Shown here one piece after another: positions 4,101-57,400 of a DNA stretch of 64,000 bases. Origin of the DNA: Octopus vulgaris (Eukaryota); assembly GCA_951406725.2 (NCBI GenBank), contig OX597830.1, positions 53,258,001 through 53,322,000 on the forward strand. The letters run 5' to 3'. Under the pieces are notes generated by a model. That model was not told the origin of the DNA and searched no databases. It worked only from the letters and a program-made list of their open reading frames with translations. The number at the start of each line of letters is the position of its first letter. Position 1 is the first letter of the stretch. Made by a program: the position numbers and the translations under genes.

Positions 4101-4133
<33 letters not shown>

Positions 4134-6254: not shown

Positions 6255-6481
6255 TTAATCGAAACTAATCAGCTCTGCTTCGTTTTGTGGCAGCACCATT
6301 TGCTGTGGTGGTGCCTGATATTGCTGGGTGGGAGGCCCAGCCATGTATTGTTGTTGCTGTTGGGGCTGTGGCTGCTGCTGTTGCTGCTGTGGTGGTGGTT
6401 GCTGTTGGGGTGGTTGTGCAGGTATTCCACTGTACACACTTGGTTGAGATGCACCGACTGGAGGAAGAGTATTTGCCAGAT
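6255..6481 (-). CDS. HGS: HGS terminal coding exon ending in clathrin box EAELISFD*
   Basis: TTTGCACAG acceptor, phase 1 matches the previous exon; LISFD is the established Hrs C-terminal clathrin-binding motif; TAA stop. Confidence 0.94.
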
Positions 6482-9294: not shown

Positions 9295-9325
<31 letters not shown>

Positions 9326-17901: not shown

Positions 17902-17969
<68 letters not shown>

Positions 17970-22316: not shown

Positions 22317-22347
<31 letters not shown>

Positions 22348-28180: not shown

Positions 28181-28239
<59 letters not shown>

Positions 28240-30840: not shown

Positions 30841-30874
<34 letters not shown>

Positions 30875-33800
30875 TCGAACAGAACATCAAGCATATCATT
30901 GATTACGGAAAGTGGTTTTGAGCACTGTCCCTCACCAAGAAAAAGAAAAGAAGAAAAGGAAAGAAAAAGACTGAATTTAGTTGTGTCCATTTACGTATAT
31001 TTTGAGTTCAGTTTCTGTTGAGGAGGGAGAATAGACTTTGCTTTTTCATTCCTCCTGTCAATAAACAAAATATCAAACATATTCAAGTCAATCCCACTGA
31101 CTCTACCCCCCACCCCCACCCTCCCTCACAAATTTGTGAACTTAAGTCATTTCAAAAACTAGTTACTTTACTGTGAAAAAGTAACTAAAATGGTCAAAAA
31201 GCAGGCTAAACATTTTAAAATATTTATTTTTTTGTCTAGGCGTAGGAGTGGCTGTGTGGTAAGCAGCTTGCTTACCAACCACATGGTTCCAGGTTCAGTC
31301 CCACAGTGTAGCACCTTGGGCAAGTGTCTTCTACTATAGCCTCAGGCTGACCAAAACCTTGAGTGGATTTGGTAGACGGAAACTGAAAGAAGCCCGTCAT
31401 ATGTATATATGTTTATGTGTCGGTGTTTGTCTCCCCAACATCGCTTGACAACCGATGCTGGTGTATTTACGTCCCCGTAACTTAGCGGTTCGGCAAAAGA
31501 AACCGATAGAATAAGTACTAGGCTTACAAAGAATAAGTCCTGGGGGTCGATTTGCTCGACTAAAGGCGGTGCTCCAGCATGGCCACAGTCAAATGACTGA
31601 AATGAGTAAAAGAATAAAAGAGATACATTATGAGTTCAAGCTCTGCCAGGGTCAGTTATGTTTTCCATCACTTTGGAGTTGATAATTTAAGTACTACTTC
31701 TATATTTATGTAAATTTATATATTTCCTTTTTTTTTCTAATATGATAAACCTTATAATAAGCTATTTTTTTTTCTTCTTATTTGTTTGCTATTGCTAGCA
31801 TATGAAGCAATTGTTTGCTCAAGATAGTGAAGTTCATGTAAATGGTAGGTAGTTACACTGGATATATTCAAAGAATTGCTGCATTATTCCATGCTTCTGA
31901 GTTTAAGTTGTGCCAGAGGACTTTTTTTTTTCAATCTCAAAACTTTTAAAAACAAATGGGAGTCCCATTATTTTGTTCTGGGTTTCTACGTAGTTATTTT
32001 TGATCAATTTGACACATTCAATACCAGACTGAGCTTAACACTATAGAAACTTTGCTACTCATTCAGTCAAATCATGAAGTACCAGTAATACAAAGGGGTC
32101 AAACCAGTCAGCTGTGGCTCAACATTAAAATGTAATATATTTCTTTATTGCCCACAAGGGGCTAAACATAGACGAGACAAACAAGGACAGACAAAGGGAT
32201 TAAATCGATTACATTGACCCTGAAAGGATAAAAGGCAAAGTCGACCTCGGCGGAATTTGAACTCAGAACGTAACGGCAGGCAAAATACCGCTAAGCATTT
32301 CACCTGGCGTGCTAACGTTTCTGCCAGCTCGCTGCTTATTAAGATGTAATATACAGGGCTCATACCAGCCAAATATGGCTTAACACACCATATAATCATG
32401 TGATATACAGGGATCAAATCAGCATCTATGGCTCAACACAATCAAATTATGTGATATACAGAGATCAAAGCAGTCAACTATGACTCAATACATTGTAAAA
32501 TTATGTGATATACAAGAATCAAAGAAGAAATTGTCTTCAATATAGCTGCAGATGGGTAGAATCAGCATTAAAGTTAATAAAATTCATAGTCAAGTCAGGG
32601 GTTAATATCACTGATAATATTCTTGAAGGACATGGTATACCTACTCTAAAGCAAATCAGCATTTTAGGTTTTTTTTTCTTTTATCTTTCAGTATGAATGG
32701 AAAAACTCTCCATCAATGGTTGAATTTAATAATAGTTCACAAGACATGGTGAATATTTTTATTTATTAATATATGTTGTCAGTGTCATTTCATTTAAAGG
32801 TTGTTTTTCTATTCTGGCATAGCTTAGGTAAGAGGTGACTGTAACAGGATTTTTATGGCTGGATGTTCTTCCTGTCATCAACCCTTACTTGTTTATGAAG
32901 TAAGAGGGATGATTTGTTGACAGGATGTCAACAAACATCATAGGTTGCAAATGGCGATGTCAATGTTTGTATCTGTAGCTCAGCATTCACTCCTACCCAC
33001 AGACACGACAAGCTTTTTTTTGAGTTTCTATCTGCCAAAATTCCTCACAAGACATTGGTCAGCTTGAGGCTATAGGGAAAACTCTTGCCCAAAGTGTTGT
33101 ACAGTGGGACTGAATCTGAAGTCACAAAGTTGAGAAACAAGCTTCTTTGCTCACTCATGCCTTTGAGTATATGTGGAGGTATTTTTCTAGTTTCTAATCT
33201 GTGTCTAACTTCTGCTTCTTATGTTGGATCCAGAGTAGAAAGTAGAGCAAAACATCTTGTGAGTGGAGTATGTGTCAATATTTTCATAGAAATAATGATT
33301 TTTTTTCAAATTAAAATAAGAAATTTAGAGTAAAGAAATCAGATTTTTTTTTCAACAACGTATACATTTTCCAAGTCATTTAGAAAAGAAAATGACAGAC
33401 AAAAAGAAAATTAAACATACATAAATACACAAAGCTATGTAATTGCAAGCAAGCAAAATACATAAATGATGTGAAGAATAAAGGCAAAACAAATAAGATG
33501 GTGGTGATGAAGATGATGCCAGAATTGTGTACCTTGAAACAAATTATGTAATCATTCTGTGCATCATGGTTGTGTGTATGTGCATATTGTAGAAATGTGT
33601 GTGTATGCTGTTGCTATGAGGGGAGAAATCTTTGGGAAAACTGTTTAAAGAGATTAAATAATTGTTCCAAACATGTCTGCTACTGCCACAGATGCTCCCA
33701 CCAACACTACAACTGTTGCAGTAATTAACTGCAATTTTGTTGATTACTTATTTATCAAAATTTTGCTCTCAAAGTAAAATTCTTCATTATCTGTTAAACC

Positions 33801-36737
33801 ATCATGAAATTAACTACCAAGATTTCCACAATTGGTAATAATCATTTTAAGTATCATTCTGTGAGAGAAAAAACCCAAAACAAAGGCCAACTAATGGGAC
33901 TTGAGCCACATTCTCATTGTTTCCTGGGCAACTGTGTTACCAACTACACTACAGGGTACCTGCTATTTATTTGTCCAATTCAATACTATAAATAATTATC
34001 TGTTATATAAAATGTGCTATTATATATTCACAGAACAGTTTCAGGACAGGTTATACTTACAATTTACCTTCAAAAGATAATTCATCAATCTCTTAGTTTA
34101 CTAAAATGGTGTGTGCCTGGTGGTTGTATGAGTGTGGTGGTGGTGGCAATGGTGGTGATATTGATGTCTGTGATAGTAGGTGCCTGATTAAAATCGTTGC
34201 AGTGGAGTATGCATTACAGTTGTGGTGGAATGTGCATGGTGGGAGTGGTAGTGTTGTATCATCCAAAGTCATCTTGAATTAAGTATGATCAAAGTCATGA
34301 GCTTCACATTTCTTAGCATATTTAGGAATACATTATAAAATGTTTCCTTCCTTTTACCAATATAGTATGGTGTCTGTGAAGGAATTTGGTTGCTATGTCT
34401 AGCAGTTCAAGTGATCATGCAGAAGTTTGTGCTTTGACTCACATGTAGTAAATGTGTGTGTTTGTACAATCATGGTTGTGAGTGTGTGTGTGAACATGGC
34501 GGTGGTTGTATGTGCATGTGTGCCTATGAACATGGTGTGTATGTGAAGATGAAATGGCTGTGTGGGCAAGGTATTTAACTACTAACACAAGTGAAAAGTG
34601 TTCTAATATGCTGTGGTTCATTGATGGTGCTACTGTGGAAGATTACTTTTGAACTTTGCATGTCTTAGCTGTAAATGAGGAATAAGGTGCCATATTCCCA
34701 GATAAGATCTTTAAGCACTATTTTGTATTCACCTGAAGACAGCAACAAGAAACACCCTTTGTCAACAATAAGACCAAAAGTCTCTTTGACCTTGGTGATC
34801 TTTGACATTGCTTTCCATTATATGTATACTGATTAATTTAAATACTATTAAAAAACAAAAAAAACCTTGTGCACATGCACACAGGCCCATGGGCACATAC
34901 ACATAAAGATCTAAACGCACTAAATTTGAAAAACATTGTAAACTGTGTATAAATTCTTAAACTATAGAATACAGACTACATTGGAAATAGTGAGGGTCTG
35001 AGTTTGAAACAAGATTCAGAACTTAAAACACTTGATTGTGGGGAGGACTCACACCTGTTACCTGTGAGTGACCCTTGTACAACTAGGAAATATAAACTAA
35101 GAGCATTATTAGAAAGAGTAGGGATGTGGGTTCTAAATAGAATCGGAACTTACAACAGTCGATGGTGGTGGGCTCACATTTGTCTTGCTGGGAGTATATC
35201 CGTTATATGTACGTACTTTATGGGTAGTTTTCTCTCGCTGGAAAGTAAAAACCAACATCACAACAAATAATGCACTGCAATCCAGTACCCCCAACCTCTC
35301 TCCCAGGTAGACATAGGCTCATTTATGAGGTCTTGATACATCATAAGCATCATCATCATCATCATTCTTTTTATTGTTTCTATTAAAGAATTCTTAAGAT
35401 TTTGTGTCAGTGTATACACTTGTGCCTCCAAGTTTGCACAGGCTTGTATGCATCCACATCTCACCCTGTGTACGCATGTGAGTGTATACACACCACTCCC
35501 TCTCTCTATAGTTGTGTGTATAAGGATGGCCAGCTGAATGTACAGGTGTCTGCACATGAATGTGTGTGTGCATGTCTTTGCCTGTCTGTGCTGCACACTT
35601 ATGCATCTCTGTATAGTTTAGCACCAATACATCTGTGACTATACATATTTATGATCAGCTACCAAAGAGACGTGTTGCTCGGCATTGGCAAGACATATAT
35701 TAGTAAAACTGACAAAAAGCATACAGTGAACTTGCCATGGTCAGTGGGAAATCCAACATTTCAGACAGAGTCCTGCTTTAGGGAAAAGTTGACAGGAGAG
35801 AAATTAAAGAGAGATAGTAAAGTTTTCAAACTCTGGATAAAAAACTGCTGTTTCTCTTTAATTTCTCCCGTCAACTTTTCGTCACAGAAGGGCTCTGCTG
35901 ACTGGATTTTCCACGGTACTCTTTTTGTCAATTTTTTATATAGATATATATGACATACAAAGAATATAATTCAAGTGGTGGATATAAGATTGTTAGCAAC
36001 TCCCAAATTCTCACTTCTTGTTTAATGTGTTGAAACTTGAGAAATAATTCTGATAAAATACATTAGTGATCCACAGCTGAGATATTTTGATAAAATATAT
36101 TAGTATAGTGATATGTGCCTGAGATAATTATCATGATAAATGCATTAGCACCTGCATTGTTCCCAGCTTTTATAAACAAAGCTACAAGCTGTGTTACCTA
36201 TCTTTATATTAGAGAGGAGATTTTGAATTGTTTTTAACAGAGAAAGAGAGACAGAGGAAACTCAGAGTATTGATGCAAAATAGCTTGAGGTTTTGTTAAC
36301 TCCATTGAGTGTGTATGTTGTTGTTGTTCAGGCTCTTGATCTATCAGAACAATAACCAAAGGTGTTGTTCTGCCACAGCCATTTTCTCATCTTTTATTCA
36401 GCCATAATGTGTCCGAGACTGCATTATCCAACATCCCTTTTTTTTTTTTTTTTTTAAGTCAGCAGAGTGTAATTTGAGGGAGGTTTGATTGCTGTTTCGA
36501 GCTACATAGAGGTTACCCCATTGACTCAGTATCAAATAATGTCAATGTAAAATGTTTTGCTGGGGTAGATATCATAGATATCAACAAGGAAGTAATATGG
36601 AAAGAAAAATGTTAAAAAGCCAATTTGAAATAGAAAACTAAAATACAAATGCAAAGAGAAAAAAGTTCAAATCAGAATTGTTAAATTGAGATGGCCACCA
36701 TGCATGTGATGTGTGTGCGTAGAGTATACAGTGTATG

Positions 36738-36801
<64 letters not shown>

Positions 36802-39800
36802 ATAATATATGTATATATATATAATATATGTATGGTGTATAGAGTGCATCTTGAATGCAATAGCATCATCATTTTAATGTCCCCTTTTCCCTGTTTCCAT
36901 GGGTCAGACAGAGTTTGATGAAGCAGATTTTCTATAACTGGATACTCTTCCTGTCATTAACACTCACCTGTTTCAAAGTAAGGTAATATTACCCCTATAA
37001 TCACATGTTTTTTTTTTGAAGAATATTAGTAACTAATGACACTGCTTGTATAACAGTGATAATCATTTACAACTAAAACGCAATGTCAAGATACACACAC
37101 ACACATATATATGTATATATACAACAAGCTCCTTTCAGTTTGTCTACCAATTCACTCACCACTTACAAGACTTTGGTTGACCTGGGACTATAGTAAAAAA
37201 TGCTTGCCTAAAGGGTCATACAATGGGACTGAACCTGAAACCATATGGCTGGGAAGCAAACTCCTTACTACATAGCCATGCCTGATAATATAGTGCAAGG
37301 CATATAGTGTATGTAGTGTGTGTGCATGTGTGTAAGGTATATGTAGCTTGTGTGTGTTTAATAAAGACTAGTTAATTATTTGTGTAATTACTAGAAATGC
37401 ATAAGGACGACAAACTTATTACTAAGCTTTTCATTTTTGACAAAACAGAATACTAACTAATCTACCATTTATTCAAAGACTGCACTTAAAAGATGTTGTG
37501 TTATTATCCGTTTATTGTTTTATATTAATTTTCCCAAACTTCCAGTGGTGTAACAAATTATTAGTTGGATCATACTATCTATCTATCCACTCAGTCGAAG
37601 TCGACTCTCGGTTACTCGTTGGATCAGTGTCCTCCAGTCAGTTCTATCCTGGGCCACTTCTTTCAGATTGGCTATGTCCATTCCAGTATCACTCTTGATG
37701 GTGTCAAGCCAGCGGGTTCTTGGTCGGCCTCTTCCTCTCTTGCCACTGGCTGTGTATTTTAGAATTTACAACCATATGGTTTTGGGTTCAGTCCCAACAT
37801 ATAGCACCTTGGGTAACAATTTTCAGTGACTTGTAGGTGGAATTTGTAGATGTAAACTACATGGAAGCCTGTCACATATGCACATTTGATACATACACAC
37901 ATACATACAAACACGCATACATATATATATACATACATACATATACACATTCCTTTTGCTGACATACATTAGCAAAAGACACACAAGAGAAAGGCAATAA
38001 ACTGATGCTTTTGAAATTAACACCTTGTATTTACTCTCCTCAAGGGAAACAATGACTGGTCCATAGTAAACCTGCAACTAAAGATGCTATTGTTCACAAA
38101 AGGAAATAAGGAAATAAAAATCATTTTAACAACTTCTGACCCATTTTTAATTGAGTTACTACTAACCGATTAACTATGATATAGAAATGGAGTCTCTTTT
38201 TCATTGTTTAGTTTTGTTTTGTTTTTTAAGTCAAGCAAATTGGACTCTGCAAAGTTATGTTCCTTGCTCAAGGGTCACAATGCTACAGTTGTGAAAGCAC
38301 GATTTGATCTCAGCACCTCAACCTCACAACTATTGTGACTACTGCTTTTAGTGGTAGATCTTGAGCTATTCACATACATGCACATATGAACACATGTATA
38401 GCTGTATGTATAACTCCACAAACAATAACATACACTGACACACAGACACACACACATCATGGAGGCCATTTTCATGAAGCTGTGCAAAAACCAAGCAGAA
38501 GCCAAGTGATAATTCAAAATTCAAACAAAATCAATGAAAGCGGGTTATCTAGGAAATATGATCCGGGTACACCTACCTCCTTCTCTTTGCTTTCATGTTC
38601 ACTCTTTGACAATGCTAATGCCAGTTGTAGCTCCTCCTCCTCTTGGATTTCCTGGTCACTCTTCGAAGGGGGAAGCTGCAAAAGTACAAGTATTTCACAG
38701 ATAAAACAAAGCATCACAAGCCATTCTTTAGATGGTCACTTGGCTTTCTAGAAATGGCAGCCAAATCACCCACAAATGTCTTCCAAAAGGGAAGGACATA
38801 CAAGCTAATGTAGTTCTACAGTGTCTGCTCAAGCAGACATTATCTCAGTACCATTATCTTGGTACCTTCCAACAAGGCTTTGGCTCAAAGCCTTAATGGA
38901 TCACATGGTATAATTCACATAAAAACAACTAGGAGCAAAAATATTGCACTAAGATAAGCTCAGAGCCCAGAAGTCTAAATCCACCACTATAAAGTATTTC
39001 TACAAGCTAAAGTTCATTATTATTATTAAAAGCTGCAGAGTAGCAGAATGGCAGAATAACAGAATGACAAAATGTTATTAAATTTTGTACTGTGTTTAAT
39101 TCTGTCTGATGTTGGCTTTGCCTTTCATTCTTCCAGGGTCAATAAAATACAACACTAATCAAGAAGACATATATTAAAACAATTCTATCAATTATAATCC
39201 ACTTCTAAAATGGCCTTGTGCCTTTGTTTGAAATTATTGTTATTATTAGTACCGAGTGAAAGTGAGGGCAGAAATGATAATGTAGAATGAGATGTTGTGA
39301 GAAAGTGTTCAATGACTCGTTAGTTTGACAGATTAAGTAATCTAATATGATACATTTAGAGGGACTTTGTTCAGTTCAAATCTCACTAGATCCAACTTTT
39401 GGTTTTTATCTGTTGGGAATGGAGGAAAGGAAAAATAAAATTGGACCCAAGGAATTTAAAATTAAGGCAATATTTCACAATACATCCCTTCTAACAAGGG
39501 CTAATGCTTAGGGAAGAAAAATTTTTAAAAAGTCTATGGAGGCTACTGAAATAATCCAGGGAGCAGTTACTGATATACAGGGATGCAGTTAATGCATACA
39601 GAACATGTTATTGCTCCAGTTATATGGTTGCTCACCATTAAAAATAGCAATCAAATTTACCACAATCACACATCAATGTCAGAGAGAAACTAAAGGACAC
39701 ACTGGATATGCAGTCTTAGATGTCAGTAAAAATTAGGACAGTCATGGCTGGAATGTCTTTGATCATATGCCAACATCAACGAATTATTTAAAGTTTATAA

Positions 39801-40788
39801 ACATATTTGATATTTATAAATACAATTAATCGTTGCATCAGAATCTGTAGAGAGACAAGACTAATTACTGTAATGCAATTTAGTTCACCATCTTTTATGA
39901 AGAATAACCTTCCAGATGGTTACTTCATCAATTAGAAATAGCACACTCCTCCTTTATCTTAGACTGCAAACACTTGACTGATTGGCATAAATCACTGGTC
40001 TGTGACTGACATAAAATCACTTAGTCACTCACCAGTTTCTGACTCACATATTATTGTGTCCTCTCTCTGCCTTTCTTACCACTACTACAATGTCCTCTGC
40101 TCCTGGAAGCTAGCTAGTCTCATGCCATTTCCATTCAGCCATGCCAAATGTACTTGACCATCTCTCATTATCCATGTTGTGTCTATCCCACATAAACCAC
40201 AAAGCCTAGTCCTTCTGCCCAATAGTATAGGCCCACCTTGGAATTCTCTCCAGTCAATTTGCAGCAGTTTAAGCAGGACATTAACAGCATTAGTCTCATC
40301 GGCCTTGAAGGGAAGGCCTGTGAGGGCTGTGGGCATTGTCCCTTTCTCCGTACTTAGCAAATAAAATTTAAAATATATTCTGCTGGATCATCGCTGGGCT
40401 GAGACTAAACCAAACCAATTCACAGGTCGTTTTGAGGACTTAATATGCATCTCGTGGCAGGTATAGAAAATAAGCAACCTAATACACACTTGGACATTGG
40501 AACATCTACATGCAACAAATGAGATTCATGCTTTTTTTTTTTTTTACTCAAAAACAAAAGGAGACAGACAGAAAAAAAAAGGGGGAAGGAACAAAGCAAC
40601 ACAAGCCAGTGTACAGACAGAACTGAGAATTAGTAAGAGGGAATAAATAAAGCAAGCAGCTAAACAAACAACTACAACAAAAAATATATATATATATATA
40701 TATATACATATAACTGAAGTTTATAGTAATCAACATTTTGATACTGTTTCAAAATACAAACTATGTAGCAATTACAATAGCCTTATAG

Positions 40789-40849
<61 letters not shown>

Positions 40850-41037
40850 AATATGAAGGAATATTATGAACACATGTTGGTATTCTACTAAATATATACA
40901 TTTTATTAATTTTTTTGCACATTACTTAATCATCGTTATATTTTTTTATCTTATATTTAATCTTTCTATTATATGTAATTTTCTAGATGGTGTAATTTAA
41001 TTTTTCATTTTGAATTGACAAAAGGTGTTTTTTCCTA

Positions 41038-41068
<31 letters not shown>

Positions 41069-44000
41069 TATAATACTTGATATACATATATATATCATAC
41101 TTAATATACAAACACCATTGATAGGTCAATTACTACAGGATTCATCCTGAGATAACATCTTATGGAAGTGCTCATAGGAACTGGTGTATCAACAGTGTAT
41201 ATACATTAAGTATGATACGAACATAGCTATTTTAATTTAATACTGCCTCAACTGCATTTGCCAGACTTTTATTTAGCCAGGTGAATATTTACAACACCAG
41301 TGAATGTTTTATTCACTCTTTCCTATATAGGAGGTAATAAATTCTTGTTCAATTATGTGGGCAATCAGTGAAAAGGCCCCAAAAAGACTGAAATGCATTT
41401 GGCATTCTTGTTAGCTGCTCCTGGGTGAAGCTATTGTCTCCTTTCAATACATGTTTTTAACACATGTCCATGCAAGTTGTAATCTCAGAGCAAACACCAC
41501 AGTAACTGGCCTATAAATGATGTATATTAAGTATTGTACATAAATGGCTGTTTTAATTTAATACTGTCTCAATTGTTTATAAGATTTTTAATTAACATTT
41601 ATTAATATATTTTATGCAAACAGCATCAAAAAGTTAATCAGAAATAATTGTGCAGTCAGATAAAAAGAGCAACATTAATCAATGACTAATTATATATAAT
41701 TACATAATTACATAACATTTTATATGAAAATAAAAAAAATACTCATTTTAAATATACGAGATCTGATCAATAAGTATCCGGACTGTTGTCATAGTAACAA
41801 AGCTAAAGCAGAGTGAAGCCACTTGGCACAGATTAATGCTCACTAAGTTTAACATTCTAGCTCACTTCTGCTGTTTACAGCAGAGCTTGGAAGGAAGGTG
41901 TGTAGCATGTGATCGTTACATTGACTATGATAGAGAAAGTTGTCATGGCGATACCTGCTCAGAGGCCTATGCAAAATGCAGAAAGTGTATGGAAAGGAGT
42001 GTATGGGTTGCACACAAGCATATGAGTGGTTCAGAGGTTCCCAAGATGACTGAAAAAAATGTTGATATTGACGAACATTCTTGGAGACCTGCAACCATCA
42101 GAACTGAGAAAAACATCTCAGCTGTGAGGGGAAATTGTTGAATCATCATCCGTGAGTTATCAGAGGATGTGCAGATTAGTTATGGTTCAGTTCAGTCCAT
42201 TATCACTGAAGGTTTGGGTATGAGATGAGTGTCTGCCAAGTTTGTGCCAAAACTGCTTTCAGCTGAACAAAAAGACACTCGGGTTTCAGCTGTACAAGAT
42301 CTCGATTGTGTTGAGAACAATGAAAACGTTTTGAAAACTTTGCTTAGGACTGAGCAGGTATCACCAATGAATGAGAAGAAGAATAAGAACAGATTGGTTG
42401 TAGAGAAGATTTCTGACTATGCCACATTATATATGGGTGGGTAGGAGTCAATGAGGTGAAGCTGGAAAGAGATAAAGGTGTGATGATGAGATCTAGAGTG
42501 TATCTTCAATGTCAAAGAAGGTGAATAGCAGACAGTATGAAGACAAACAGTCAGAAGGGGTAGGTAAATATTGCAAGGGTGTGAGGGCAGAGTGAAAGAT
42601 GGTTAGAAATTGGTTGTCTTCCTCCCGCCATATACTCAGGCAGCCTTTACACACCCACCTGATCTCCTTTCTCCAATATGTAAATACATCATCATCATCA
42701 TCGTTTAACGTCTGTTCTCCATGCTAGCATGGGTTGGACGGTTCAACTGGGGTCTGGGAAGCCAGAAGGCTGCACCAGGCCCAGTCTGATTTGGCAGAGT
42801 TTCTACAGCTGGATGCCCTTCCTAATACCAACCACTTCATGAGTGTAGTGGGTGCATGAAGCTTCCTATCTCTGACATGTGAGCATGCACACAACAGCCA
42901 AACACCATGTTGCTGGAGCTATTAAAGCACACAGTTCTATACAAGGATATATATATATATATCACAAGATTCACTAGAAAGGACTTAAAGGAAAAGGAAA
43001 CAATATGAATAATATCTTCAGTAAACAAATGTGGTGGCTAATATAATCTAGTCTTTGTGAACAGGAAGTTATATAAAATAAAGCGGTTTAGGAGGATGTG
43101 GTGGGAGTAAGAAAAAGAAACACTACAGAACAGTCAGACAGGAAAATATCTGCTTTAAAAGACCGACCAAGAAAATAGCCTGTTTACAAATCAAGAAGCC
43201 TTATTGTGGTCACTTGACCCGCTAGAAACAGCAGCCAAATTATCTCCCTCAACTTACACTACTTTATATACTGAATGTTGTCTCGGGTCCACACAAAGAC
43301 AAGATGGTCAATGTCTAAACGTCTTTTACTGTAGACCTGCTCATTCAGGCCCGACTGCATAATAACAATCCGTGTTGCCTTTTTTGGGCTCTGAAAAGGG
43401 AAAAGCTCACAAAAACTAGTAGACTGGTTTCCTATACATGCATGTTCATGTAGTTAAGAAGCTTGCATTTCAACCATGGGGTTAACAATTGGAATGATGG
43501 GTTGTTAAAACAATCCATCTCAAATGAAGCCTCAGCAACAGGCATCAAATAGTGTGATGATGATGATGATCACAAATATCTCATCATCTCTGTCAATATC
43601 AACTTGTACCATTTACAGCTCTGCCTAGGGTTATTTGAAACACATATTATATCATGTATATTGTGAACAGTGGTGGCTCATAGATGAAATTAGTAGGGGT
43701 GCTGCTTCAGAAATTTTTAGACATTGTTTTAATATTGTGTAAAAGGAAACAAACATAAAAAGAAAATTTATACATAAACCTGATCGGTTCATGTTTTAGC
43801 CACTGCCAGGTTGTGTGTTTAATTTGTTCACTGAACACTGCCGCGAAGTCCCCCTTGTTTTTCAAAAATTCCCCCTAAATCACAAAATAAGGGGGGAAAA
43901 TATGCCCTAATTTTCAAATCCTGGCAGCAATAGGAATCAGAAATAACCAATAACTGTGGTTTAGTCACATGACAACCTGAATGGAAGAGACTATAATTAA

Positions 44001-47000
44001 AGACCGCCTAGCCATGTCCAAGTAATTTTTCGTGTACCTACGACTTCACTGTGTCCTTCCTTTAGTCATAAAATCACCCTCAAACCATATTCTACTAACA
44101 ATATAGAGACTCTCTTGTTGGCTGAGAAACAATTGTGTTGTAATATACTATGATGCATTGTACTATACGGTAATGTATTATAGCATAATGTACTGTATAC
44201 TATAATGCATTTTAGTATATTATGACATATTGTAATATACACTGGCACATGAACGAAATTTGCTTGGGGGGTGCAAACTCAGGTCCAAAAATGTTTACAA
44301 ACAAGGTCTTTTTTTTTTATTTTTGTTCTTTGAGAAACCTAACTCCAAGCTACTTTTTACAAACCACTTTTTACTCACTGTTTTCTAAACCCGAGAAAAG
44401 TAAACAGGGGTGCAAATTTTGATTTAGCACCCCACAAAAATTCTATGAGCTGTGCTTGCACCCCCTGTTATCAGGCCTATGGTAATATATTATAATTTAT
44501 TAAGGTGGCAAGCTATCAAAATGCTTAGCAGCATTTTGTCTGTCTGTCTGTTCAAAGTTCAAATTCTGCTGAAGTTGACTTTGCCTTTCATTCTTTTGGG
44601 GTCAATAAAATAAGTATCAGTTGGACATTGGTAACAATGTAATCAACTTACCCACTCTCACAAAATTGTTGGCCTTGTGCCAAAATTTGAAAAAAATATA
44701 TTATGTGTTATACTATATCAGAATGTATTATAACAGATTACAATGTATTATAGTATATTGTAATGCATTGTATTTTATTGCAATCTACTGTAGTATATTA
44801 TAAAAGGACCAAGAGAGAAAGGAAGGGCAATAAGTTGATCCTCTCAGAGAAAGAGTACCTTCAAATATCATCAAACCGGCACAGGAAGTTGAACTTCCAA
44901 GAGAACACAAAAGCTGAGGTATCTAGCAAATATGGAGACAGAAGCCTAAATAAGGATTTCACCACAGCAAGTATGACTTGAGAGACAGCAAAGAGAATGA
45001 GGAGGGTTAGTAGAATTAAGTGTGAGGAAGAAACATTGTGTCCCATATGTTTCACAGGATCTTATTTTTTTATATTTTACTTGTTTTAGTCACTGGACTG
45101 AGGCCATAATAGAGCACTGCCTTGAAAGGTTTAGTCAAAACAAGCCCAGTGCATAATTTTTTTTAAAGCCTGGTACTTAATCTATCAGTCTCTTTTGCCA
45201 AAGTGCTAATTCAGAGGAATGTAAACAAACCAACACTGATTGTCAAGCAGTTGGGTGAGGGACAAACAGATACATACATAATAATACACAAACACACACA
45301 TAGATATTACAATGGGTTTTTCTCCATTTTTGTCTATAGAATCCATTCAAGGTTTTGGTTGGCCTGGGCTCATATTAGAAGGCACTTGCCCAAGGACTGA
45401 ACCTGGAACCATGTGGTTAGGAAGCAAACTTCTTACCACACAGCCACATCAATGTTGAAAATATTAATAGTTATGATAGAGAATAAGCAGTTAAGTAAAG
45501 ATAATTTTAAGAGAAAAACACAAAACAAAACACAAAATATTTGGAAATCTAAATTATAAATTTTGGTTGGAAGTTTTAAAATCAAACAGCTATTATCTCA
45601 TTTGAATCAGTTTAAAAAAAATACTGTATATATGTTGAATCCTTAAGTTTCATAAAAAAATATTAGGGGTTAGATAATACAAAACACATAATAGAAACAC
45701 ACCAAAACACAAGCAAACACACACTGGTCAATAAAAACAACACACATAAGCTATATATATATATGTATGTAAGCATCAAGAAGCGGACAGTTATAACAAG
45801 AAAGCACGCAAAAAAATATAAAAAACTTCTGCTGTAATAATAATAAATAATAATAATAATAATAATGATAATAATAATAAAAGAGTATAAAAAGTGGCTT
45901 ACATTCTCCTGACCTCTTGATGCCTTCTGTATGAGCAGATAGATAGAGAAGGGGATTAAGGGTCAGATTTAGGACATTTGTGGTAGTAAATGCAAACAAA
46001 AAGTAGTTCAGTGTTTATGTGCGTGTGTGTGTGTGTGCGTGTGCATATATATATAGAGAACCAGAAGTATGGTAGAGGTAAGACAATGACCATCAATGAC
46101 TTGGTTAATGACACAACCACACACACACACACACACAAAAGCCAAACAAAGGATGAATATATTAAAACCAACTGCTGACACTGTTGCCATTAGCAACCAG
46201 CACAAGTTATAATCAGAAGCTGAAGAGGATTAAAAGAAAACAACTAGAGCACCACCACTTGCACCAGCAGCATGAGTGACAGATTTGAAATCAATATTTT
46301 ATTAACCCCTAATTGTGAGAAGTTAGACATGACTATGACACACAATCATTCCTTTCCATTGAGCAGCCATGGTTGTGGGGGTTAAGATGTTTAATTCATA
46401 ACCAATGGCTTCTGTGTTCCGTTCCAGTGCACAGCATCATGGATGTCTTTTACCATAGCCATGAGTTGACCATGACTTTGTGAATGGCAAACAGCTGGTG
46501 GAAACTGCAGAAGCTCAATAGACACACACAAACACAGCATGGTTAAGAGGTTAACTTCTCAATCTCATAGTTTTAGGTTCAAACCCACTCAGTGACACTT
46601 TGGGCAAGTATCTTCTACAACAAATATCCATGTTCCATGCTGGTATGGGTTGGACCATTTGCCAAGATCCAACAAGTTCAATGACTGCATAGTGCTCCAC
46701 TGTCTGCTTTGGGAGGATTTCTACTGCCCTTCCTAGTGCTAACCACTTTACAGTGTGTAATGGGTGCCTTCTTTGTGCTACCAGCAAAAGTAAAGTCACT
46801 ATGCAGTCTGAAAAATTACAAACCCCAAAGAGAAGTGACATTATGCCAGGAGATGAAAGGTTACAGTTTGAGAGAAAGGGCCAAAGCAGAACAGAATCTT
46901 GCTGTAGGGGAGCTACGTGACTACTCACATTTTAGAAAGAGAGTGGTGGTGATCAGGGTAGAGCAGGAAAGAAATAAAATAGTGGTCACGAGATGTGCAT

Positions 47001-48441
47001 ATGACCCTCAAGGTATGAGATGAATAGAAGTTAATGGAGGAAGAAGAATCAGGAGAGTGGGTGGGTGGGTGGTGGTTGCAAGAGAGAGTGAGAGATGGAG
47101 AATGAGTGAGGAGAGTAAAGATAAAGAATGCTGAGTGCATGGGTAAGGAAGAGTAGAAGACAACTATAGAGATTGGATAGGGTTGAGGGGAAGGTAGATA
47201 TAATGAATGGTGGGAAGTGACCAATGATGCATGGGGTTGAAGAGTAGCAGAATGATAATGATGATGATACAGTATAGAGGGGAAGGGTGAGAAGGAGAGA
47301 GAGAGAAAGATGATGAGTGGTTGGATAGATTGTGAAAGTGTGGGGGAAGGAGAGAGAAGTAAGCATAGTGCATGGTGATAGATAGATAGATAGATAGTAG
47401 AGAGAGAGAGAGATGGTGGTGGAGAAGACGAAATGATTTGGCAGCTTGAGGAGACACAGCAAAGTGTTGATAGAAAGGGCAGTATTGGTTTCAAATTTTG
47501 GCACAAGGCCAGCAATTTCAGGGAAGGGTATAAGTCAATTACCTCGATCCCAGAGTCCCACGGGTACTTTTATCAACACTGAAAGGATGAAAGATGAAGT
47601 CAACCGTAGCAGAATTTGAACTCAGAAATGTGAAGACAGACGAAATGCTGCAAAGCATTCTGCCTAGTGTGCTAATGATTCTGCCAGCTCGCTGCCTTAT
47701 GAGAGGACGGTATTAAGGGTGACCATTGCTAAAGGTTAGTGGTATCAAGGAAAAATTGCAGTTGGAGAGATGAAAGGTGGTGGGAGTGTCTTGAGGTAGG
47801 AAATTTGGCAAAGGGCCCTGCTGTACATGCACACACAGTGCTTCTAGTACTGCCAATCGTCTTGGTACGCTGTCATCTCCTCCAATAGTTTAAATATGTG
47901 TCTGTGTATGTTTATATCTTTTGTTGTATACTAGTGAAGAATACAAGCATCAATGAAAAACTAGGGCTCTTCAAACTGTTCACAAACACTCCTCCCTTAA
48001 TTAACTGTCATAAATACACTGAACCAAAGATTGGCTTGATGTAAACTAGTAACTAACAATAACACAATTGTGATATAAAATTATAAAACAGAGTGAAGAA
48101 CTTGTAGGGTTTGAGATCTCTTTGGTCCTGTCTGGCAGAGAGCTATTCAATCTCTAGTGTTGCTGCTATGGGAAAATGCACCCAGTACACATGGCAGAAC
48201 TGTTGGTGATAGGAAGGGAACCAAGTTATAGAAACCTAGCCAGAATATGTATGAACACATGTATAAGGGAACAGCAGCTCCCCATAAGAAATAACATGAA
48301 CTGTAACAACGCCTCCAACTCATGCCAGCATGGAAAATAGACATAAAATGATGAGGAGATTAATAAATTTTCTTACGGATGATCTTGTTAAATATCAGAC
48401 CAAATCCAGTCATGTTTAAACTATTTCTCTCTCTGTCTCTC

Positions 48442-48497
<56 letters not shown>

Positions 48498-51400
48498 CTA
48501 TTATGTTAAACTGTCGTATGTCCAAATTTAGCCAAATGTTTTTTGTTTTTTTTTTCAATATTTAATTTTGCTTGCAATAGCCAGTTCTTTGGTCAAACTA
48601 TCATATCTCACCAGCTGCTTCAGATGAAAATTGTGAAAGTGAAGTACAATGGTATAGCATTTTTCAAAAGTAGCAAACCCCCACATATGACACTTTTGCA
48701 AAAATATTTCTGACTGAAAACATCATACATGCATGGTAATTATGATTTTATGCATTATTGTTAGGCCGAAACTGTTGCTAAAGTAAAAAGAAGTGGAATG
48801 GTGAAACTATTTTTTCATTTTCTGAAAAAGCAACATTTTGGACTTACGGTACTTTTGCTTAGTAGCAACATATATATATATATAATAATTTGAGTGAATA
48901 TTATTCCTAACTTACAGGGAAAAATTCAATTTAGAAATACTAAATCAAATTTCACAAAATATAATATATATATACGAGAAAAATTAGAAAAACCACCTTT
49001 TATCAATTCAAAATGAACAATTAAATTACACCATCTAGAAAATTACATATAATAGAAAAATTAAACATAAAATAACAATAATATATCGATGATTAAGCAA
49101 AATAATAAATAAAACGTATATATTTGGTGGTTTTTCTAACTTATATATATATATATATATATATGACTGACTCGACAATGGACTGTGAACTGACCAGTCC
49201 CACAATGTACAGTGTGAGGTGACCAACCTTGCAATAATACATGTTAAGAAGATAGGAAAACATTTTAATAAATTACAATAACAAACTGAGAGAGTGAGTG
49301 CAATGTGTCCAAGCTATGAGAGAAGAGAAAGTTAAGTCTATCGTCCAATTCACACTTCACAGCATAATTTCTGGAGTCCAGAATATGGAAACTTCAGTTA
49401 AACAGCCAAGAGGTGAATAGTCTATTGAGTCTACATTTGATTCTATACCCACAACATACACAGATGGCTCAATCTAACTTGTCAATAGAAACATCTTGCT
49501 GTAAACAGTGGGAGCACTGTTAGTGTAGCTTTATCTAGTGTCTCCCTCCCACATCCCTTTTTCAAAATAGTAGTGTCATCAACGAAAATTTGGCTGCTAT
49601 TTCTAACAGGTTATAGAGACTTGTTGATTATAATGAGGATAGTTGTAGGCTGTCAGAGAGAGAGAGAGAGAGGATTATTATTTTAGAGGAGAAAAATTCT
49701 TCCAACCTAACAATTCTGAGAATAAAGGAATCAAATGGAGACACCAAACGAGCCCCAACAGAGTCAATCGGAGACAGGCCAGGTCTATAGTAAAATATTA
49801 AGTAGAAAACATTTTGTTGTTCCATCCACTTGGTTGCAATGATTGACATCTCAATTATATTTTCATTTAGGTAATCAGTCCTGCACTGGAGTTATTCTGA
49901 AGCCGACTATACCCTTCTCTTCCAATTTTGTTGCCTTAGTCCTATATTTTAAAACAATTATTTGCTTTATATTTCAACATTGTCATAATACTACTTTAGA
50001 AAATTCAATACTAGTTAGTGAAGAATTGTCTAACAGACATTATTGCTATGAAGAAAGAAGAGAATTCAAAGTCTTATTGTTGTTATTATTAAGGTAGTGA
50101 GCAGGCACAATTGTTAGCATGTCAGGCATTCTGAGTTCAAATTCTGCAGAGGTTGACTTTGCCTTTCATCCTTTTGGAGTTGATAGAATAGGTTCCAGCT
50201 GAGTAATGAGGTTGATGTAATATGACTTACCCACTCCCCTGAACTTACTGGCCTTGTGCCAAGATTTGAAACAACAACAACAATAAATATTCTTTCTCAC
50301 AACTGTAAGAATGTCTAACCAGTTGTGGCCCGATAGTCTTAAATTTACAGTATTGGTTCCAGTTCTTTGTACTCTGAATTCAGTTTCTGCCATGGTTCAC
50401 TGGGCTCATAGACTTAGCTAGTCACTTGGTTTAATACTATCACCTGGCTCCTAGGGTGCCTTTACCAGATTCCACTCTTTACCAGATTTCTGGCTCAAAG
50501 TTAACTTCCTTCCTACCAATGCCACTATCCCACCTATCTCAGAGACCTAGTAAAGGGTCATGGCACTGCCTTTCCTTCTGATTAACAGATTAGCAAGATA
50601 AAAGAAGGGGTACAAGGTTTGAAATTTGGGAGAGCCAGGGTACTCAATCTGACTCCAGTAGTTAACTGCTACAATATTTCATTGACCTCAGAAGGATTTG
50701 AACTTGGTATAACAATATTACTGAGGCTTTCTAACTTAGCACAAAGGTTGATTAAATTGTCCTCTATACTTGGTTAGTGCTTATTATGTCCTTTTTGGAT
50801 GAGTAAAGAGCAAAGTTGACTCTGAAACCCCAGAATAATAACTATTCCTCAGATGATACAAGAGCCACAAATTTGGTAGTGGTGTGGAGGGGGAAGTAAC
50901 ACAATAGATTAAATCAACACCAGCACATTGTCTAATATTTATTTTATCAACCAAATGTACTCTAAAACCAGTTGGAAGTTGGGAAAGGTACCCAACCATA
51001 GAAATGCTGCAATAGCATAAATGTACAAATCTAGTCATTCTACCAATCTACCACCACCACAGTAAACACTATTAGGTATTTTGTTCAGCAATCAGAGAAT
51101 TCTACTAATTTTCTACAGGAATGGAGTGGTGAGGGTGAGAGGGAGAGAGAGAGTTGATTGCAATAACCTACCTAGTACACTACTTGTATTTTATCAAAGC
51201 CAGGGGAATGAAACAGAAAAAATGATAACTGAACTCAGAATCTTGAATTAGAAGAGTAAATATAGTAAAGCATTAGTAAATTTAATTAACTCCACAAGTT
51301 GACCAGTACTTTATTTTATTGACCACAGGAGACATAGCTGACCCTAGCAGAATTCGAACTCAGAATGTAAAGAGTCATGACTAACTACAGCAGGGCTCAA

Positions 51401-54400
51401 CCAATTCTGCCAGGGCAAGGGAAGTCATGTGTTCACCTCTTCAGCAAGACACCTGTTCTTGACCATCTATCAAACTTTCACATCCTTCAATACTATGACC
51501 CACTCAGTTGAAGGGGTCTTGTCATGCAAGTACTTAGTGACCTCACTATGAGAGAAAAAAAGCACCCAGTGCACTCATCATCATCATTTAACGCCCGCTT
51601 TCCATCATGCTGGTATGGGTTGGATGGTTTGACTGAAAATTGGTAAGTGGGGGTGGGGGCTGCACCAGGTTCCGATCTGATCTGGCAAGACCTCTACAGC
51701 TGGATGCCCTTCCTAAGGTCAACCACTCTGAGTGTAGTGGGTGTTTCTTTGTGCACAACCAGTACAGGTGCCATTGACCTGACACTGGCATCAACCACAA
51801 CTATGGTCTCACTTGGCTTGACAGGTCTACACAAGCGCAGTATATCACCAAAGGTCTTGGTCACCTGTCACTGCTTCCATGTGGTCTAATGCCTGACCAG
51901 TGCTTTTTACATGCCACTGGCATGGGTGCCAGTCAGTTGGCACTGTTATCAGCGATGACTACTATTTCACTCAGTTCAACAGGTCTTCACGAGCACAGCA
52001 TATTGCCAAACAACTGAAGGGTGCTTTTAGCAGGCCAGCTGCACGACATTGGCATCAGCCATGATTACAATCTCACTTGGCTTGATGTTACTGCCTCCAT
52101 AAAGCTCAACCCCGGAATGGTGCTTTTTACGTGCCACTGGCACAGGTGCCAGTCAGACGGCACTGGCATTGGCCATGACTACAATTTCACTCAGTTCGAC
52201 AGGTCTTCACAAGCACAGCATATCACCCAACGATTGAAGGGCGTTTTTATAAGGGACATTGACATTGGCTCCAACAATGTAATTGGCATTCAGCAGTAGA
52301 AACTATTCCAAAGCAGACACTGGAGTTTGATGCAGCCCTCTGGCTCAAGGTTTCTGTTGAATCACTCAACCCATACCAGCATGGAAAATGGAAGTTAAAT
52401 GGTGATGATAAAACCCTAGGAGTGGGAACAATAGATCAAACAATAAATGAGGGGAGTTGATCTCCCGTGTAACAAATGAAACCAAACAAAATATTTCGTC
52501 TGCTGTTCCATTAATTCTCAGCTTTAATTATGGTAATTATGATAGTGGTGGTAGTAATAGAAACATTATGTTGTTGAAGACTGAGTCTTTAGATCGGTAT
52601 GATGTGCAACAATCCAATCTAAATACAAATTAATCTGTTTCAATGTAATCAAACCCACAACAACCTTTTTTCAGTTATTGTTAAAGTATAAATAATTTGA
52701 TCCCATGTGTATTGTAAATAAATATAACAGAATATTCAACACAAGTGCTGCTGTTGTTTACCTGCGACTGCTTGGACAGTGAACTGGCTAAATATTCAGA
52801 AGGCAGAGAGTCTGTATCAGATGCGGTCTTCTTATCTCTGCAATGAATAAAGAGAATGAATCTATCAGAGGTGGCTACATACAAACAGAACAGTAGTAAA
52901 AAAAAAAAATAAGGGAAATAATTTGAAGAGGTAAAAAGGTATAAATTTGGACAAATGAGTCAGTACTGTGTATCATATGTAAAATATTTTCAGCTAAAAT
53001 TTACCATTTAGTTGGAGAAAAAAAAAATTAATGGCAATTGAAAACTACAGTCCTAAAAGAGGAGATAATTTTTTTAAAAACATTAATCAATTTCTCAGTT
53101 ATTTTATACATGTTATGGTCCCTTGAGGACAAAAAAAAAAACTTCTCTAAGGCTGGTGCCACAAAAAAAAAAAAAAAAAAAAAAGCATCTAGTATACTTC
53201 ATAAAACATTGTTAGGAAGGAGCATCTAGCCACAGAAACCAAGGCAAAAATGAAATGAATGAGATGAAATCACCTGAGTCATCCAGGTGAGCAGTACGCA
53301 TGAATATGTGCTGACTTCCATCATGATGACAACTCATCAAACCCATGCCAGCATGGGAAATAGATGTATAATAACTATGATATTGGGAAAGTCTGAACAT
53401 TGTTTGAAGGCAAGGGATAATTAAGGAAATGCCTCAGTCTATTAGGTTTCATCAGCACAGTATATACTTCATAATGTATAAACTATAGCATATAATTACT
53501 TCAAAACTGCTCAATCAGTTGACAAATATCCTTATATAAAATATTTTTTTATGAGAATAATTTGCATAATTAAAACATGAGCCAGGTGAAATTATTCAAA
53601 GGACATAATGGCATGGATAAGTTAAAGAGTGATGCATTTAATGCAATGTGCAAATATTTTAATTATAATACCTTTCTTGTTAGTGATCTCTAAACAAACT
53701 GGGAAATAATTTCAAGGAATTAGGAATTAATCCCTCAAAGTTCAATTATACAAACTTAGAGGAAGGAAAGTATGAGCCTTGTTTGCTGGCAAGGATGACA
53801 ATTATGAAAAATTTCACTGTAAAACAGAGTGAATTGCTCAAGGACAAAATGTACCACCCAATGTAAAAATCAAACCCACAACCTATCAATTCTAAGCCCA
53901 ATACCTCAAGCGTTGGGTCACACATCCTCATTTGCAGGACAAACAACAGTAAATATAGCCAAGAGTTTATTAACTAATTTATAAAACAGTTCTTGACTGA
54001 CTGACACAGAATCAGTACAATGCACAAAATATTAAAATGTAATACATAAAATATAAAATAGACAACATTTACAACTGAACCAGTAGTTGGTAGATATAGC
54101 ACATGCACACAATTACCACCATCATCATCTTAACATCCACTTTTCCATGCTTGAATAGTTAAAACAGAATTCTTTGAGGCAGATTCTCTACAGCTGGATA
54201 TCTTTTCTATCATCAACCATCATCTATTTCAAAGCAAAGTAATGACCAGGCATGCTTTCTTTGTAAGACTGGAAACAAAGATTACTTGTACAGGATGGGC
54301 CAAAAGTCACAGAGAGGTTGCAATATTTAATAACTTTTTGAAAATTAATTTCTATTTTCTTAAAAATTTCATATAAAAGACTTTGAAGATTAACCATGGA

Positions 54401-57400
54401 AAAGTTCACAACCAAACAGTGAACAAAAATTGTGAAATTTTACTATCAAAACCAAGGATCAATAAGTCTAACTCAATGAACATATCTCTACCATTACAGT
54501 GCGAGGGATTTGGAAAATCCGAGGATGATTCACCAAAGTGAATTGCATCCCCTAGTGTGGGGTGAGATCAAAAGAAGTGATCAGACATTTTTTTGAAGAT
54601 GATAAAGGGAACCCTGTTACTGTTACAAGAGATGAATATCAGTTTATGATCAAAAATTTCTCCCAGTCGTTCAAGATAAACTTGACATATAGTTCAAACA
54701 GGACAGAGCCACAGTTCACACAGCAAGGACCACAATTCAACCACTCAAGCATATTTTTGAGGGAAGAATAATTTCCTGCAGTTGCAACATATGCTGACCA
54801 ACATGTTCTCCAGATCTGATGGCTCCTGACTACTTCCTATTGAGTTGTCTTAAGGGGGAAAAAAATGTATGTTAACAAGCCTCAGGCACTTCAATAGCTT
54901 AAGAGCAATATTCAGGCTGAAATCAGAGTGCTGGGACCTGAATCATTAAGGACTGTCATGGAAAACACATTAGAAAGGGTGAGTTTATGCAAAGTAGAAA
55001 ATGGATGCCATTTATGATATGTAATTTTTCATACATAGTGTAAATATAATTTCTATATGTATTGTATAGGATATTCTGATGTAAATTTAAGACAAAAAAG
55101 GAGTTATTAAACATTCAAACCCCTTCATGACTTTTGGCCCACCCAGTATAATGGTGACACTCATTTATAACCGTCACAACACGTCAAGACAAGGTTAAAC
55201 ACAAACATGCACAATGGATTTCTTTTAGTTTCCATCTACCAAAACCACTCACAAAGATCTAATTGGACAAGGGCTATAGTAGAAGACACTTGCTCAACCT
55301 GCTGCACTTGACAACCACATGGTTGGAAAGCAAGCTGCTTTTCAAACACACAGCCAGGAACAGGGAACATTGAAGTGCTTACAATCTTGTACATAATATT
55401 AAAGCAAAACTTGTGAAGGAATGGAAAAACAAACTGTTCACATTCTGTTACACAAGGAATGTATGAGTAACTACAAATCAGAACCATCTTGGACCATGAG
55501 AACATATCCAATCCAAGCTAATATGGAACACTATAAAACGATATGAGAGTACTCTTTAGAGCATATCACAGAAAACCTCTCTACTGTTAGACCAGTACTT
55601 CATTTGACTGACTGGTACTTGATTTTTATCAGAACAAATGGAATGTAAAGTTGATCTTTAGTGAATTTTGTACTCGGAACATAAAGAGCTGGAACTAAAT
55701 ACTGCAAGACCTTTTTATCTGTTTATAATGATTCTGCAAATTTACCACTTTGTTTGAAAAAATTGTTTGAAATTAAAATGATGTCATCATTCCTTAAATT
55801 TTCTCTCATTTACACCACTAGGTTTAGAATCCATGGCTTCAGCAGACAGCTTTTACAAACAAAAAAGGAAAGAAGATGAAATGGAGAGCTTACCTGAGTT
55901 TATCAAAGCAAGAATCACAGACTCGCACTTCACGTTCTATCCCAAAGCGAGGAATGGTTGACACTTTTGAAGAGCATTTACTACACATTACTTCTCCACA
56001 GTTGCGGCAATGGTGCTAGAAAAAAAACAAAATAGAACTAAAAAGTCTGCTGTCACAGTTTTCATTATATAATTACTTTTCATTGATTATAATTAAATTA
56101 AATCATTACTAATATGATTTGTATTTTTTTCTTTTTAATAACTTTTCTCACATGCAAGATTGGTAACTGGAACAAATGCATCAAAAGAAAAGGAAATTTT
56201 TTCCACACCTTATGTATGTGACAGAAAAACAGTTAGATGGAGGGAAGTCCATAATTTGTAACTAATCACTGGTGCTATGCTGTGTCTATGGCCAGAACAT
56301 TTAATTTTCAAATAGCAGGTTAATACATGGATAACATTTTAAATTTAGGAGGTACTATAAAAGAGATGTAATATCTATGGAGCACTGCAGCATGAATAAA
56401 GTATAGATTCTATGGAGCACAATTATGTAGAGTCTAGGATGTACTATGGGTGAGATAGAGTGTAGGGTGGTCATGGATAATATGCAGTCCTTTTGACTTC
56501 CTGTATGGGACAATTTTATGATAATACTAACAAAACTTTTTCCAGAGTTGTTTGCTAAAATAGTCAAATCAAATAGGAGTAAATACATTGGTGTGGCCTG
56601 AATTATGAGGATCAATACCTCGTGCAGCCTGCTAGTCAAACAAGGTTGACCATATCTGGGCATTGAGTGATATAGCATCTGGAAGGCACTCTCAATGAGA
56701 TGAAGAATGTGGGTGAGATATAGGGTCTACAAGGTAATATGGACAAGATGTAGGGTCTATAAGATATTATGGATGAGCTGTGGGGTCCTATAAAGGTACT
56801 ATGGACAAGATGTAGGGTTTATGAAGTATATGGATGAGACAAACTCTTGAAGGTGATGGATTAAAAGAGTTAAGGAACAACTACTCAAAAATCAGTGAAT
56901 ATGTATGAATAACATTTGTTGCTCATCCGTAGTTTCATGTTAAGAGAGAGAATTGTTTATTCATTGGGGCAAATTCTTTTTTACAGCTTAGGCATCAGTC
57001 CCTTCCTGCCACTAACCACTCAACTCTGAAGTAGGGTTTCTTTGTTTTGTTTCAATGACTCAGAGTGAGGTGCTATTTCTCAGAGGCATGGCACAATGTG
57101 CCATAGATCTGAACACATATGGTCAGTTGTCCAACATTAACTTCACAATCAGTGCTTAAATCATTTGCACAGCTTAAATCAGCTTTTCAGTCTTGGGTCT
57201 GTAACAAAGTGTGTATGTTGTTCAGTATTATAAGATGATGGGGTATAGCAATCTTATAGGGTAAGTGGTATTGAGGTGAGGGGCACTAGGATGATACACT
57301 GTTATAGGAAAGGGTGCAGTGGGGTAATACTGTGTTTCAAGGTATAAGGTACTGAGTGGTGCTACTGCATAGACCTTATAGGATGGATGGTATTGTGGTG

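What the first reader, a model, noticed from the sequence alone, without database searches (positions are those of the whole stretch)
45903..45970. 24-nt microexon candidate with upstream UGC, inserting KASRGQEN just before the Hrs UIM
Seen: midway through the 14-kb phase-0 intron, the minus strand reads CTGAC/CTTAAT (branch-like), a pyrimidine tract, TGC at -11..-9, then CAG|AAGGCATCAAGAGGTCAGGAGAAT|GTAAGC. The surrounding ~500 bp has no recognisable SINE. Established: neural microexons (27 nt or less) controlled by SRRM3/4-type eMIC proteins are frame-preserving, carry a UGC just upstream of the 3' splice site, and are enriched in vesicle-trafficking genes. Inference: this is a neural ESCRT-0 isoform with altered FYVE-UIM spacing.
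Basis: partly seen in the sequence, partly recalled or inferred. Interest (0 to 1): 0.72.

Follow-up and report, generated by a model that had tools for sequence, protein, structure and literature searches.

The report
Optional microexon in cephalopod Hrs gene
An octopus gene for the endosomal sorting protein Hrs carries a real 24-base optional exon, matched in cuttlefish and already in public gene models, that adds eight amino acids just before the ubiquitin-binding helix and is likely switched on in neurons.

Summary
Real and alternatively spliced; neural control likely but untested. The 24-nt exon lies where described, in a phase-0 intron of the Hrs/HGS gene. O. bimaculoides RefSeq X1/X3 contain KASRGQEN and X2/X4 skip it. 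O. vulgaris and O. sinensis models include it. Sepia pharaonis has KGTRNQDN in one model and lacks it in another. The 3' splice site has the eMIC/SRRM4-type layout: UGC at -11, branch motifs, UCUC tract and a 171-nt AG-free zone. The genome encodes an eMIC-like exon. I could not test tissue bias, eMIC dependence or function, and the read-laying gave no junction. New detail: the insert splits a conserved block whose PxEY-motif-to-UIM spacing is 13 residues in 195 of 262 scorable sequences, and other molluscs have isoform-variable inserts at the same junction. It is a new member of a known class.

The parts
45903..45926 (-). 24-nt alternative cassette microexon of Hrs/HGS, phase 0-0, encodes KASRGQEN
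   Evidence: identical peptide in XP_052830010.1, CAI9735381.1, XP_029646862.2; absent from XP_052830011.1
45927..45972 (-). 3' splice-site module: branch-like motifs at -46, -40, -33; pyrimidine tract with TCTC at -23; TGC at -11..-9; CAG acceptor
45929..46099 (-). 171-nt AG exclusion zone upstream of the acceptor
   Evidence: 20-74 nt for 10 other exons of the gene; second longest of 756 AG-free gaps in the intron
45897..45902 (-). 5' splice site GTAAGC (5 of 6 to GTAAGT)
52762..52837 (-). Upstream exon: end of the variable linker and the conserved LPxEYLxSxLxxQxQ motif
38577..38675 (-). Downstream exon with the UIM; skipped in O. bimaculoides isoform X5
   Evidence: Pfam UIM 22.7 bits, cut-off 21
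35154..35237 (-). Second alternative exon, 84 nt (28 aa), after the UIM exon
55893..58053 (-). Two exons encoding the FYVE domain (58053-57931 and 56015-55893, tblastn limits)
6255..62886 (-). Hrs/HGS gene within the window (VHS, FYVE, UIM, Hrs helical domain, Pro/Gln tail); the first 40 codons were not matched in the window

Best explanation
This is a 24-nt alternative cassette exon of the single-UIM ESCRT-0 subunit Hrs that is likely included in neurons through the eMIC isoform of Srrm234, and the eight inserted residues would loosen the fixed spacing between a conserved linear motif and the ubiquitin-binding helix. Shown: the exon, its splice signals, include/skip isoform pairs in O. bimaculoides and Sepia pharaonis, and an eMIC-like exon in the genome. 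Inferred (about 0.7): the branch point and pyrimidine tract sit back from the AG, so the tiny exon is skipped by default, and eMIC acting at the UGC rescues early U2AF/SF1 recognition in neurons. Inferred (about 0.4): the insert is predicted to be disordered and to leave the UIM helix intact; it moves the UIM from 13 to 21 residues from the PxEY motif, which would tune partner binding or cargo reach rather than switch sorting on or off.
For: Isoforms: P0001 vs P0068 and P0070 vs P0072 differ at this junction only by the 8 residues; Logan proteins P0004 and P0077 are otherwise 100% identical. The octopus and cuttlefish inserts share 4 of 8 residues, BLOSUM 24, reached by 0 of 97,301 8-mers from the other fetched homologues. 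Cis-layout matches the eMIC-exon code in PMC8797185 (long AG exclusion zone, UGC near the 3' ss, UCUC tract, strong branch point; passages) and 10.1101/2024.09.17.613571 (passages). It is the only such site among 73 candidates in the gene. PF15230 matches once in the genome, over its cut-off (32.6 vs 27 bits). AlphaFold2 puts the site in a pLDDT<50 stretch (243-248 skipped, 241-257 included) with the UIM helix kept. Spacing is 13 residues in 195 of 262 scorable sequences, of 332 examined; the set is redundant.
Against: No tissue-resolved data were obtained. The included form dominates cuttlefish-type Logan contigs (92 vs at most 20), and the single O. vulgaris and O. sinensis models include it. 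That fits broad inclusion as well as neural-biased sampling. UGC is neither necessary nor diagnostic (79% and 74% of SRRM3/4 targets carry one). The eMIC-like exon was not linked to the cwf21 exon 1.5 Mb away. Conservation of the intronic UGC in distant species was not shown. Inserts of unrelated sequence and length at this junction in other lophotrochozoan models suggest the site tolerates insertions. Most of 45 zebrafish microexon deletions had little or no phenotype (PMC12626420, abstract).
Confidence: 0.6

Rival explanations
1. The exon is real and regulated but not neuron-specific: it is the majority form in many tissues, or follows another programme (muscle, secretory cells, developmental stage).
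For: Included form in 92 vs at most 20 cuttlefish-type contigs; default models of O. vulgaris and O. sinensis include it; strong donor GTAAGC, whereas fly eMIC exons have weak donors.
Against: The complete eMIC-type 3' splice-site layout is unique to this exon in the gene; tissue origin of the contigs is unknown.
Confidence: 0.25
2. Whatever its regulation, the insert is a nearly neutral spacer in a disordered segment, kept only because it preserves frame. This can hold together with neural inclusion.
For: Predicted disorder; only 4 of 8 residues identical in cuttlefish; varied inserts at the same junction elsewhere; weak phenotypes of most single microexon deletions.
Against: Same length and a homologous sequence in octopus and cuttlefish, whose Hrs proteins are 83.5% identical; the flanking block is highly conserved and its spacing is usually fixed.
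Confidence: 0.3
3. A chance pseudo-exon or a gene-prediction artefact.
For: Loose AG..GT matches are frequent (226 in this intron); no junction was seen in the runs laid (but these were unsuitable).
Against: Independent models in three Octopus species and Sepia, and full-length ORFs on 2.7-4.2 kb Logan contigs, carry the insert at the same junction.
Confidence: 0.02

Closest known systems
RefSeq/GenBank cephalopod HGS isoforms (XP_052830010.1 vs XP_052830011.1; CAI9735381.1; XP_029646862.2; CAE1167119.1 vs CAE1167120.1)
   Same: The same insert at the same junction; identical peptide in the three Octopus species.
   Different: Automated models only; I found no paper on its regulation or function.
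eMIC (SRRM3/4, Srrm234)-dependent neural microexons
   Same: 24 nt, frame-preserving, UGC before the AG, strong branch motif, UCUC tract, long AG-free zone, trafficking gene.
   Different: Neural bias and eMIC dependence are not shown here; the donor is strong as in mammals, not weak as in flies.
Recurrently evolved neural microexons (spg/DOCK3-4, syd/JIP3-4 hotspots; 10.64898/2026.09.05.749416, passages)
   Same: Isoform-variable short inserts in the same region of one ancestral trafficking gene in several lineages.
Human and fly HRS isoforms (PMC2796970, passages)
   Same: Same gene, alternatively spliced.
   Different: The described isoforms affect residues 517-605 (human) or the VHS domain (fly), not the FYVE-UIM region.

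Membership tests
Hrs/HGS/Vps27 (host gene) | VHS + FYVE + UIM + Hrs helical domain in order | tested here: met
   Pfam on matching proteins; exon map on the window; best PDB matches are HGS
eMIC/SRRM3/4-dependent neural microexon | Length 3-27 nt, frame-preserving | tested here: met
   24 nt, phase 0-0, no stop
eMIC/SRRM3/4-dependent neural microexon | Alternatively spliced cassette | tested here: met
   Include/skip pairs in O. bimaculoides, Sepia pharaonis and Logan proteins; 6,835 and 7,227 nt flanking introns. No skip form was seen for the species closest to the window.
eMIC/SRRM3/4-dependent neural microexon | UGC between branch point and AG, UCUC tract, strong branch motif, long AG exclusion zone | tested here: met
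eMIC/SRRM3/4-dependent neural microexon | Genome encodes an eMIC domain | tested here: met
   PF15230 over cut-off at G000:C25:37317492-37317626; one exon only, expression not tested
eMIC/SRRM3/4-dependent neural microexon | Inclusion enriched in neural tissue | not testable with these tools
   Run labels are coded and contigs give no levels; the octopus tissue annotation in PMC9699675 was too large to read
eMIC/SRRM3/4-dependent neural microexon | Inclusion depends on eMIC | not testable with these tools
   Needs a minigene or knock-down
eMIC/SRRM3/4-dependent neural microexon | Conserved upstream intronic elements | tested here: inconclusive
   1 of 4 runs laid covered the site: one contig of run X1, 122 nt identical, distance of the organism unknown
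SARA/endofin Smad-binding domain (for the motif upstream of the insert; lead recalled from memory) | Sequence similarity to PF11409 | tested here: inconclusive
   No PF11409 match at E<=10 in 9 queries; the genome's SARA motif scores 2.8 bits on the Hrs-motif profile, reached by 91 of 2000 shuffles; only PSEY is shared

The most novel reading that the evidence does not exclude
The FYVE-to-UIM connector of Hrs is a recurrent splicing hotspot in animals. Cephalopods, and possibly a periwinkle with the same ancestral exon (3 of 8 residues shared; 0.3% of control 8-mers score as well), insert a microexon inside a conserved, uncharacterised PxEY-motif/UIM module, while sharks, pulmonate snails and oysters insert nine residues one intron upstream. 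In neurons this would act as a switch that uncouples a partner-binding motif from ubiquitin capture and gives a neuron-specific ESCRT-0.
Probability: 0.2. Interest if true: 0.6.

Novelty: new member of a known kind. Interest (0 to 1): 0.33.

Why it matters
It is a clean, testable candidate for an eMIC target in cephalopods, where individual neural microexons are barely described in the papers I could search. It also points to a conserved Hrs motif, without a known partner in what I read, whose distance to the UIM is usually fixed and is altered by splicing in several lineages. If isoform-specific sorting were shown, it would link neural splicing to receptor degradation. As it stands it is one more likely member of a well-known class, already present in automated gene models.

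Tried and rejected
Junction reads: the run search listed no RNA holder on record (no evidence either way). The four runs laid on 45600-46300 gave no joints: X10 and X15 matched only low-complexity sequence, X17 covered 45600-45825 only, X1 gave one unspliced 122-nt contig. The flanking exons were not in that stretch, so junctions remain untested. SARA-like Smad-binding idea: weak sequence support; the complex prediction of the Hrs motif with an octopus Smad2/3 MH2 domain returned 'no answer' (0.08, mark 0.34), which is no evidence either way. A Nedd4-type PPxY reading: human Hrs has PPEY (PMC2172688, passages), but octopus has PSEY and that position is A in 47% of 99 aligned sequences, so it does not explain the conservation. 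Rbfox control: no TGCATG or GCATG within 500 nt either side. A counterpart of the shark/snail/oyster 9-residue insert in the octopus intron 55892-52838: none passed the scan. 'hgs'/'hrs' in supplements of three microexon papers: 0 hits in 1, 8 and 12 files; such tables may use other identifiers. The 2019 eMIC paper is not held. Two exons were dropped from the AG-zone comparison because my acceptor coordinates were off, and one was not entered. No fold search was run, since the host protein is known.

Full report
Observation. The sequence is as described. On the minus strand the upstream exon (52837-52762) ends in ...SKQSQ with donor GTAAAC, the candidate (45926-45903) encodes KASRGQEN between CAG and GTAAGC, and the downstream exon (38675-38577) encodes the UIM. 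All three junctions are phase 0. The 121 bases around the candidate gave one match in the 2.8-Gb genome (the tool skips common words, so this does not prove uniqueness). The gene is Hrs/HGS: VHS, FYVE, UIM and Hrs helical domains map exon by exon across the window.

Is it more than chance? Loose exon-like strings are common: 226 open AG..GT pairs in the 14,086-nt intron. With a strict donor there are 6, against a mean of 4.8 in shuffles. Only this one adds UGC, a CTRAY branch motif and a pyrimidine tract, a combination seen in 0 of 300 shuffles. It is also the only one of 73 donor-bearing candidates in 56.5 kb of the gene with all features. Its AG exclusion zone is 171 nt, against 20-74 nt for 10 other exons (two more dropped for wrong coordinates, one not entered), and second longest of 756 gaps in the intron. 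The criteria were chosen after seeing the site.

It is a real alternative exon. O. bimaculoides XP_052830010.1 and XP_052830012.1 contain [10 protein letters not shown]_052830011.1 and XP_052830013.1 lack exactly these residues. O. vulgaris CAI9735381.1, which matches the window's exons almost letter for letter, and O. sinensis XP_029646862.2 include it. Sepia pharaonis CAE1167119.1 has KGTRNQDN and CAE1167120.1 lacks it. Unnamed Logan proteins of the same cluster occur in both forms: 92 contigs with the insert, at most 20 without. Their contigs are 2.7-4.2 kb and carry the whole ORF, so they are inferred to be spliced transcripts. The one Argonauta model and one other Logan cephalopod-like protein lack the insert. 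The octopus and cuttlefish inserts are homologous: 4 of 8 identical, BLOSUM 24, reached by 0 of 97,301 control 8-mers. The split of these lineages is roughly 270 million years old (recalled, from no call).

Regulation. PMC8797185 (passages) describes eMIC exons as having long AG exclusion zones, UGC near the 3' splice site, UCUC-rich tracts and strong branch points, and says eMIC is neuron-restricted in non-vertebrate bilaterians. The site has all four features. The genome holds one PF15230 match over cut-off; a cwf21 exon lies 1.5 Mb upstream on the same strand and contig, but I did not link them. Against over-reading: UGC is present in only 79% and 74% of two classes of SRRM3/4 targets and is not strictly needed (10.1101/2024.09.17.613571, passages). 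The included form dominates the cuttlefish-type contigs, which may reflect neural sampling or broad inclusion. I obtained no tissue-resolved data: no RNA holder was on record, the runs laid gave no joints and covered the exon in 1 of 4 cases, and the octopus tissue annotation of PMC9699675 could not be read. Neural, eMIC-driven inclusion is therefore inferred, at about 0.7.

Effect on the protein. In an alignment of 99 homologues, residues 221-229 vary, but L230-E272 form one conserved block; the insert falls between Q244 (93%) and P246 (89%). The distance from the PxEYLxSxLxxQ motif to the UIM is 13 residues in 195 of 262 scorable sequences (332 examined; isoforms and alleles make the set redundant), from a rodent and sharks to insects and molluscs; the cephalopod included form has 21. 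AlphaFold2 models of both O. bimaculoides isoforms keep a short helix at 232-235 and the UIM helix, and place the junction in a low-confidence stretch that grows with the insert. This agrees with HRS being unstructured outside its three domains (PMC13376570, passages). The likeliest action is a tuning of the spacing between a linear motif and the UIM (about 0.4); near-neutrality is a serious rival, since most zebrafish microexon deletions show little (PMC12626420, abstract). The partner of the motif stays unknown; a SARA-like reading got only weak sequence support.

Other lineages. Isoform-variable inserts occur at the same junction in Littorina (9 residues, cassette-like, 3 of 8 shared with octopus, weak), and in Aplysia, Biomphalaria, Tubulanus, Mya, scallops and Gigantopelta. 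The latter all begin with Val, as a shifted donor would give; Physella and Haliotis inserts end in Gln, as a shifted acceptor would give. This reading is from protein models only. Nine-residue variable inserts occur just after the FYVE domain in sharks, Biomphalaria, Physella and Crassostrea. No insert at the microexon junction was seen in the oyster, mussel, Pomacea, Patella, shark or rodent sequences fetched.

Novelty and verdict. Searches (listings) and passages of PMC2796970 gave no description of this exon; the 2019 eMIC paper was not held. Earlier notes of this scan show nothing on this gene. New member of a known kind; interest 0.33.

Noticed in passing
window 35237-35154 (-): A second alternative exon (84 nt, 28 aa) right after the UIM exon; present in O. 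bimaculoides X1/X2 and the O. sinensis model, absent from X3/X4 and the O. vulgaris model. It differs from O. bimaculoides at 3 of 28 residues and lacks the eMIC-type layout.
   Followed up: partly
window 38675-38577 (-): O. bimaculoides isoform X5 skips the microexon, the UIM exon and the 84-nt exon in frame, giving a UIM-less Hrs. Shark models P0053 and P0054 also skip the UIM exon. Possibly a recurrent ubiquitin-blind isoform.
   Followed up: partly
window intron 55892-52838 (-); proteins P0055, P0153, P0132, P0391, P0401: Sharks, pulmonate snails and oysters each have an isoform-variable 9-residue insert of unrelated sequence just after the FYVE domain; no candidate passed my scan in the octopus intron.
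   Followed up: partly
L003 (G000:C27:9915-13046) and L004 (G000:C25:35788396-35791467): Two cwf21 loci: an uninterrupted Srrm2-like reading frame on C27 and an intron-split exon on C25, 1.5 Mb upstream of the eMIC-like exon L002. The eMIC-bearing gene may be very large or duplicated.
   Followed up: no
window 52836-52762 (-) and L005: The conserved Hrs motif after the FYVE domain shares PSEY with the Smad-binding domain of octopus SARA; similarity not significant.
   Followed up: yes
window ~4040-5250 and ~8990-9420: Long AT/AC-type microsatellite tracts that give spurious long reading frames.
   Followed up: no
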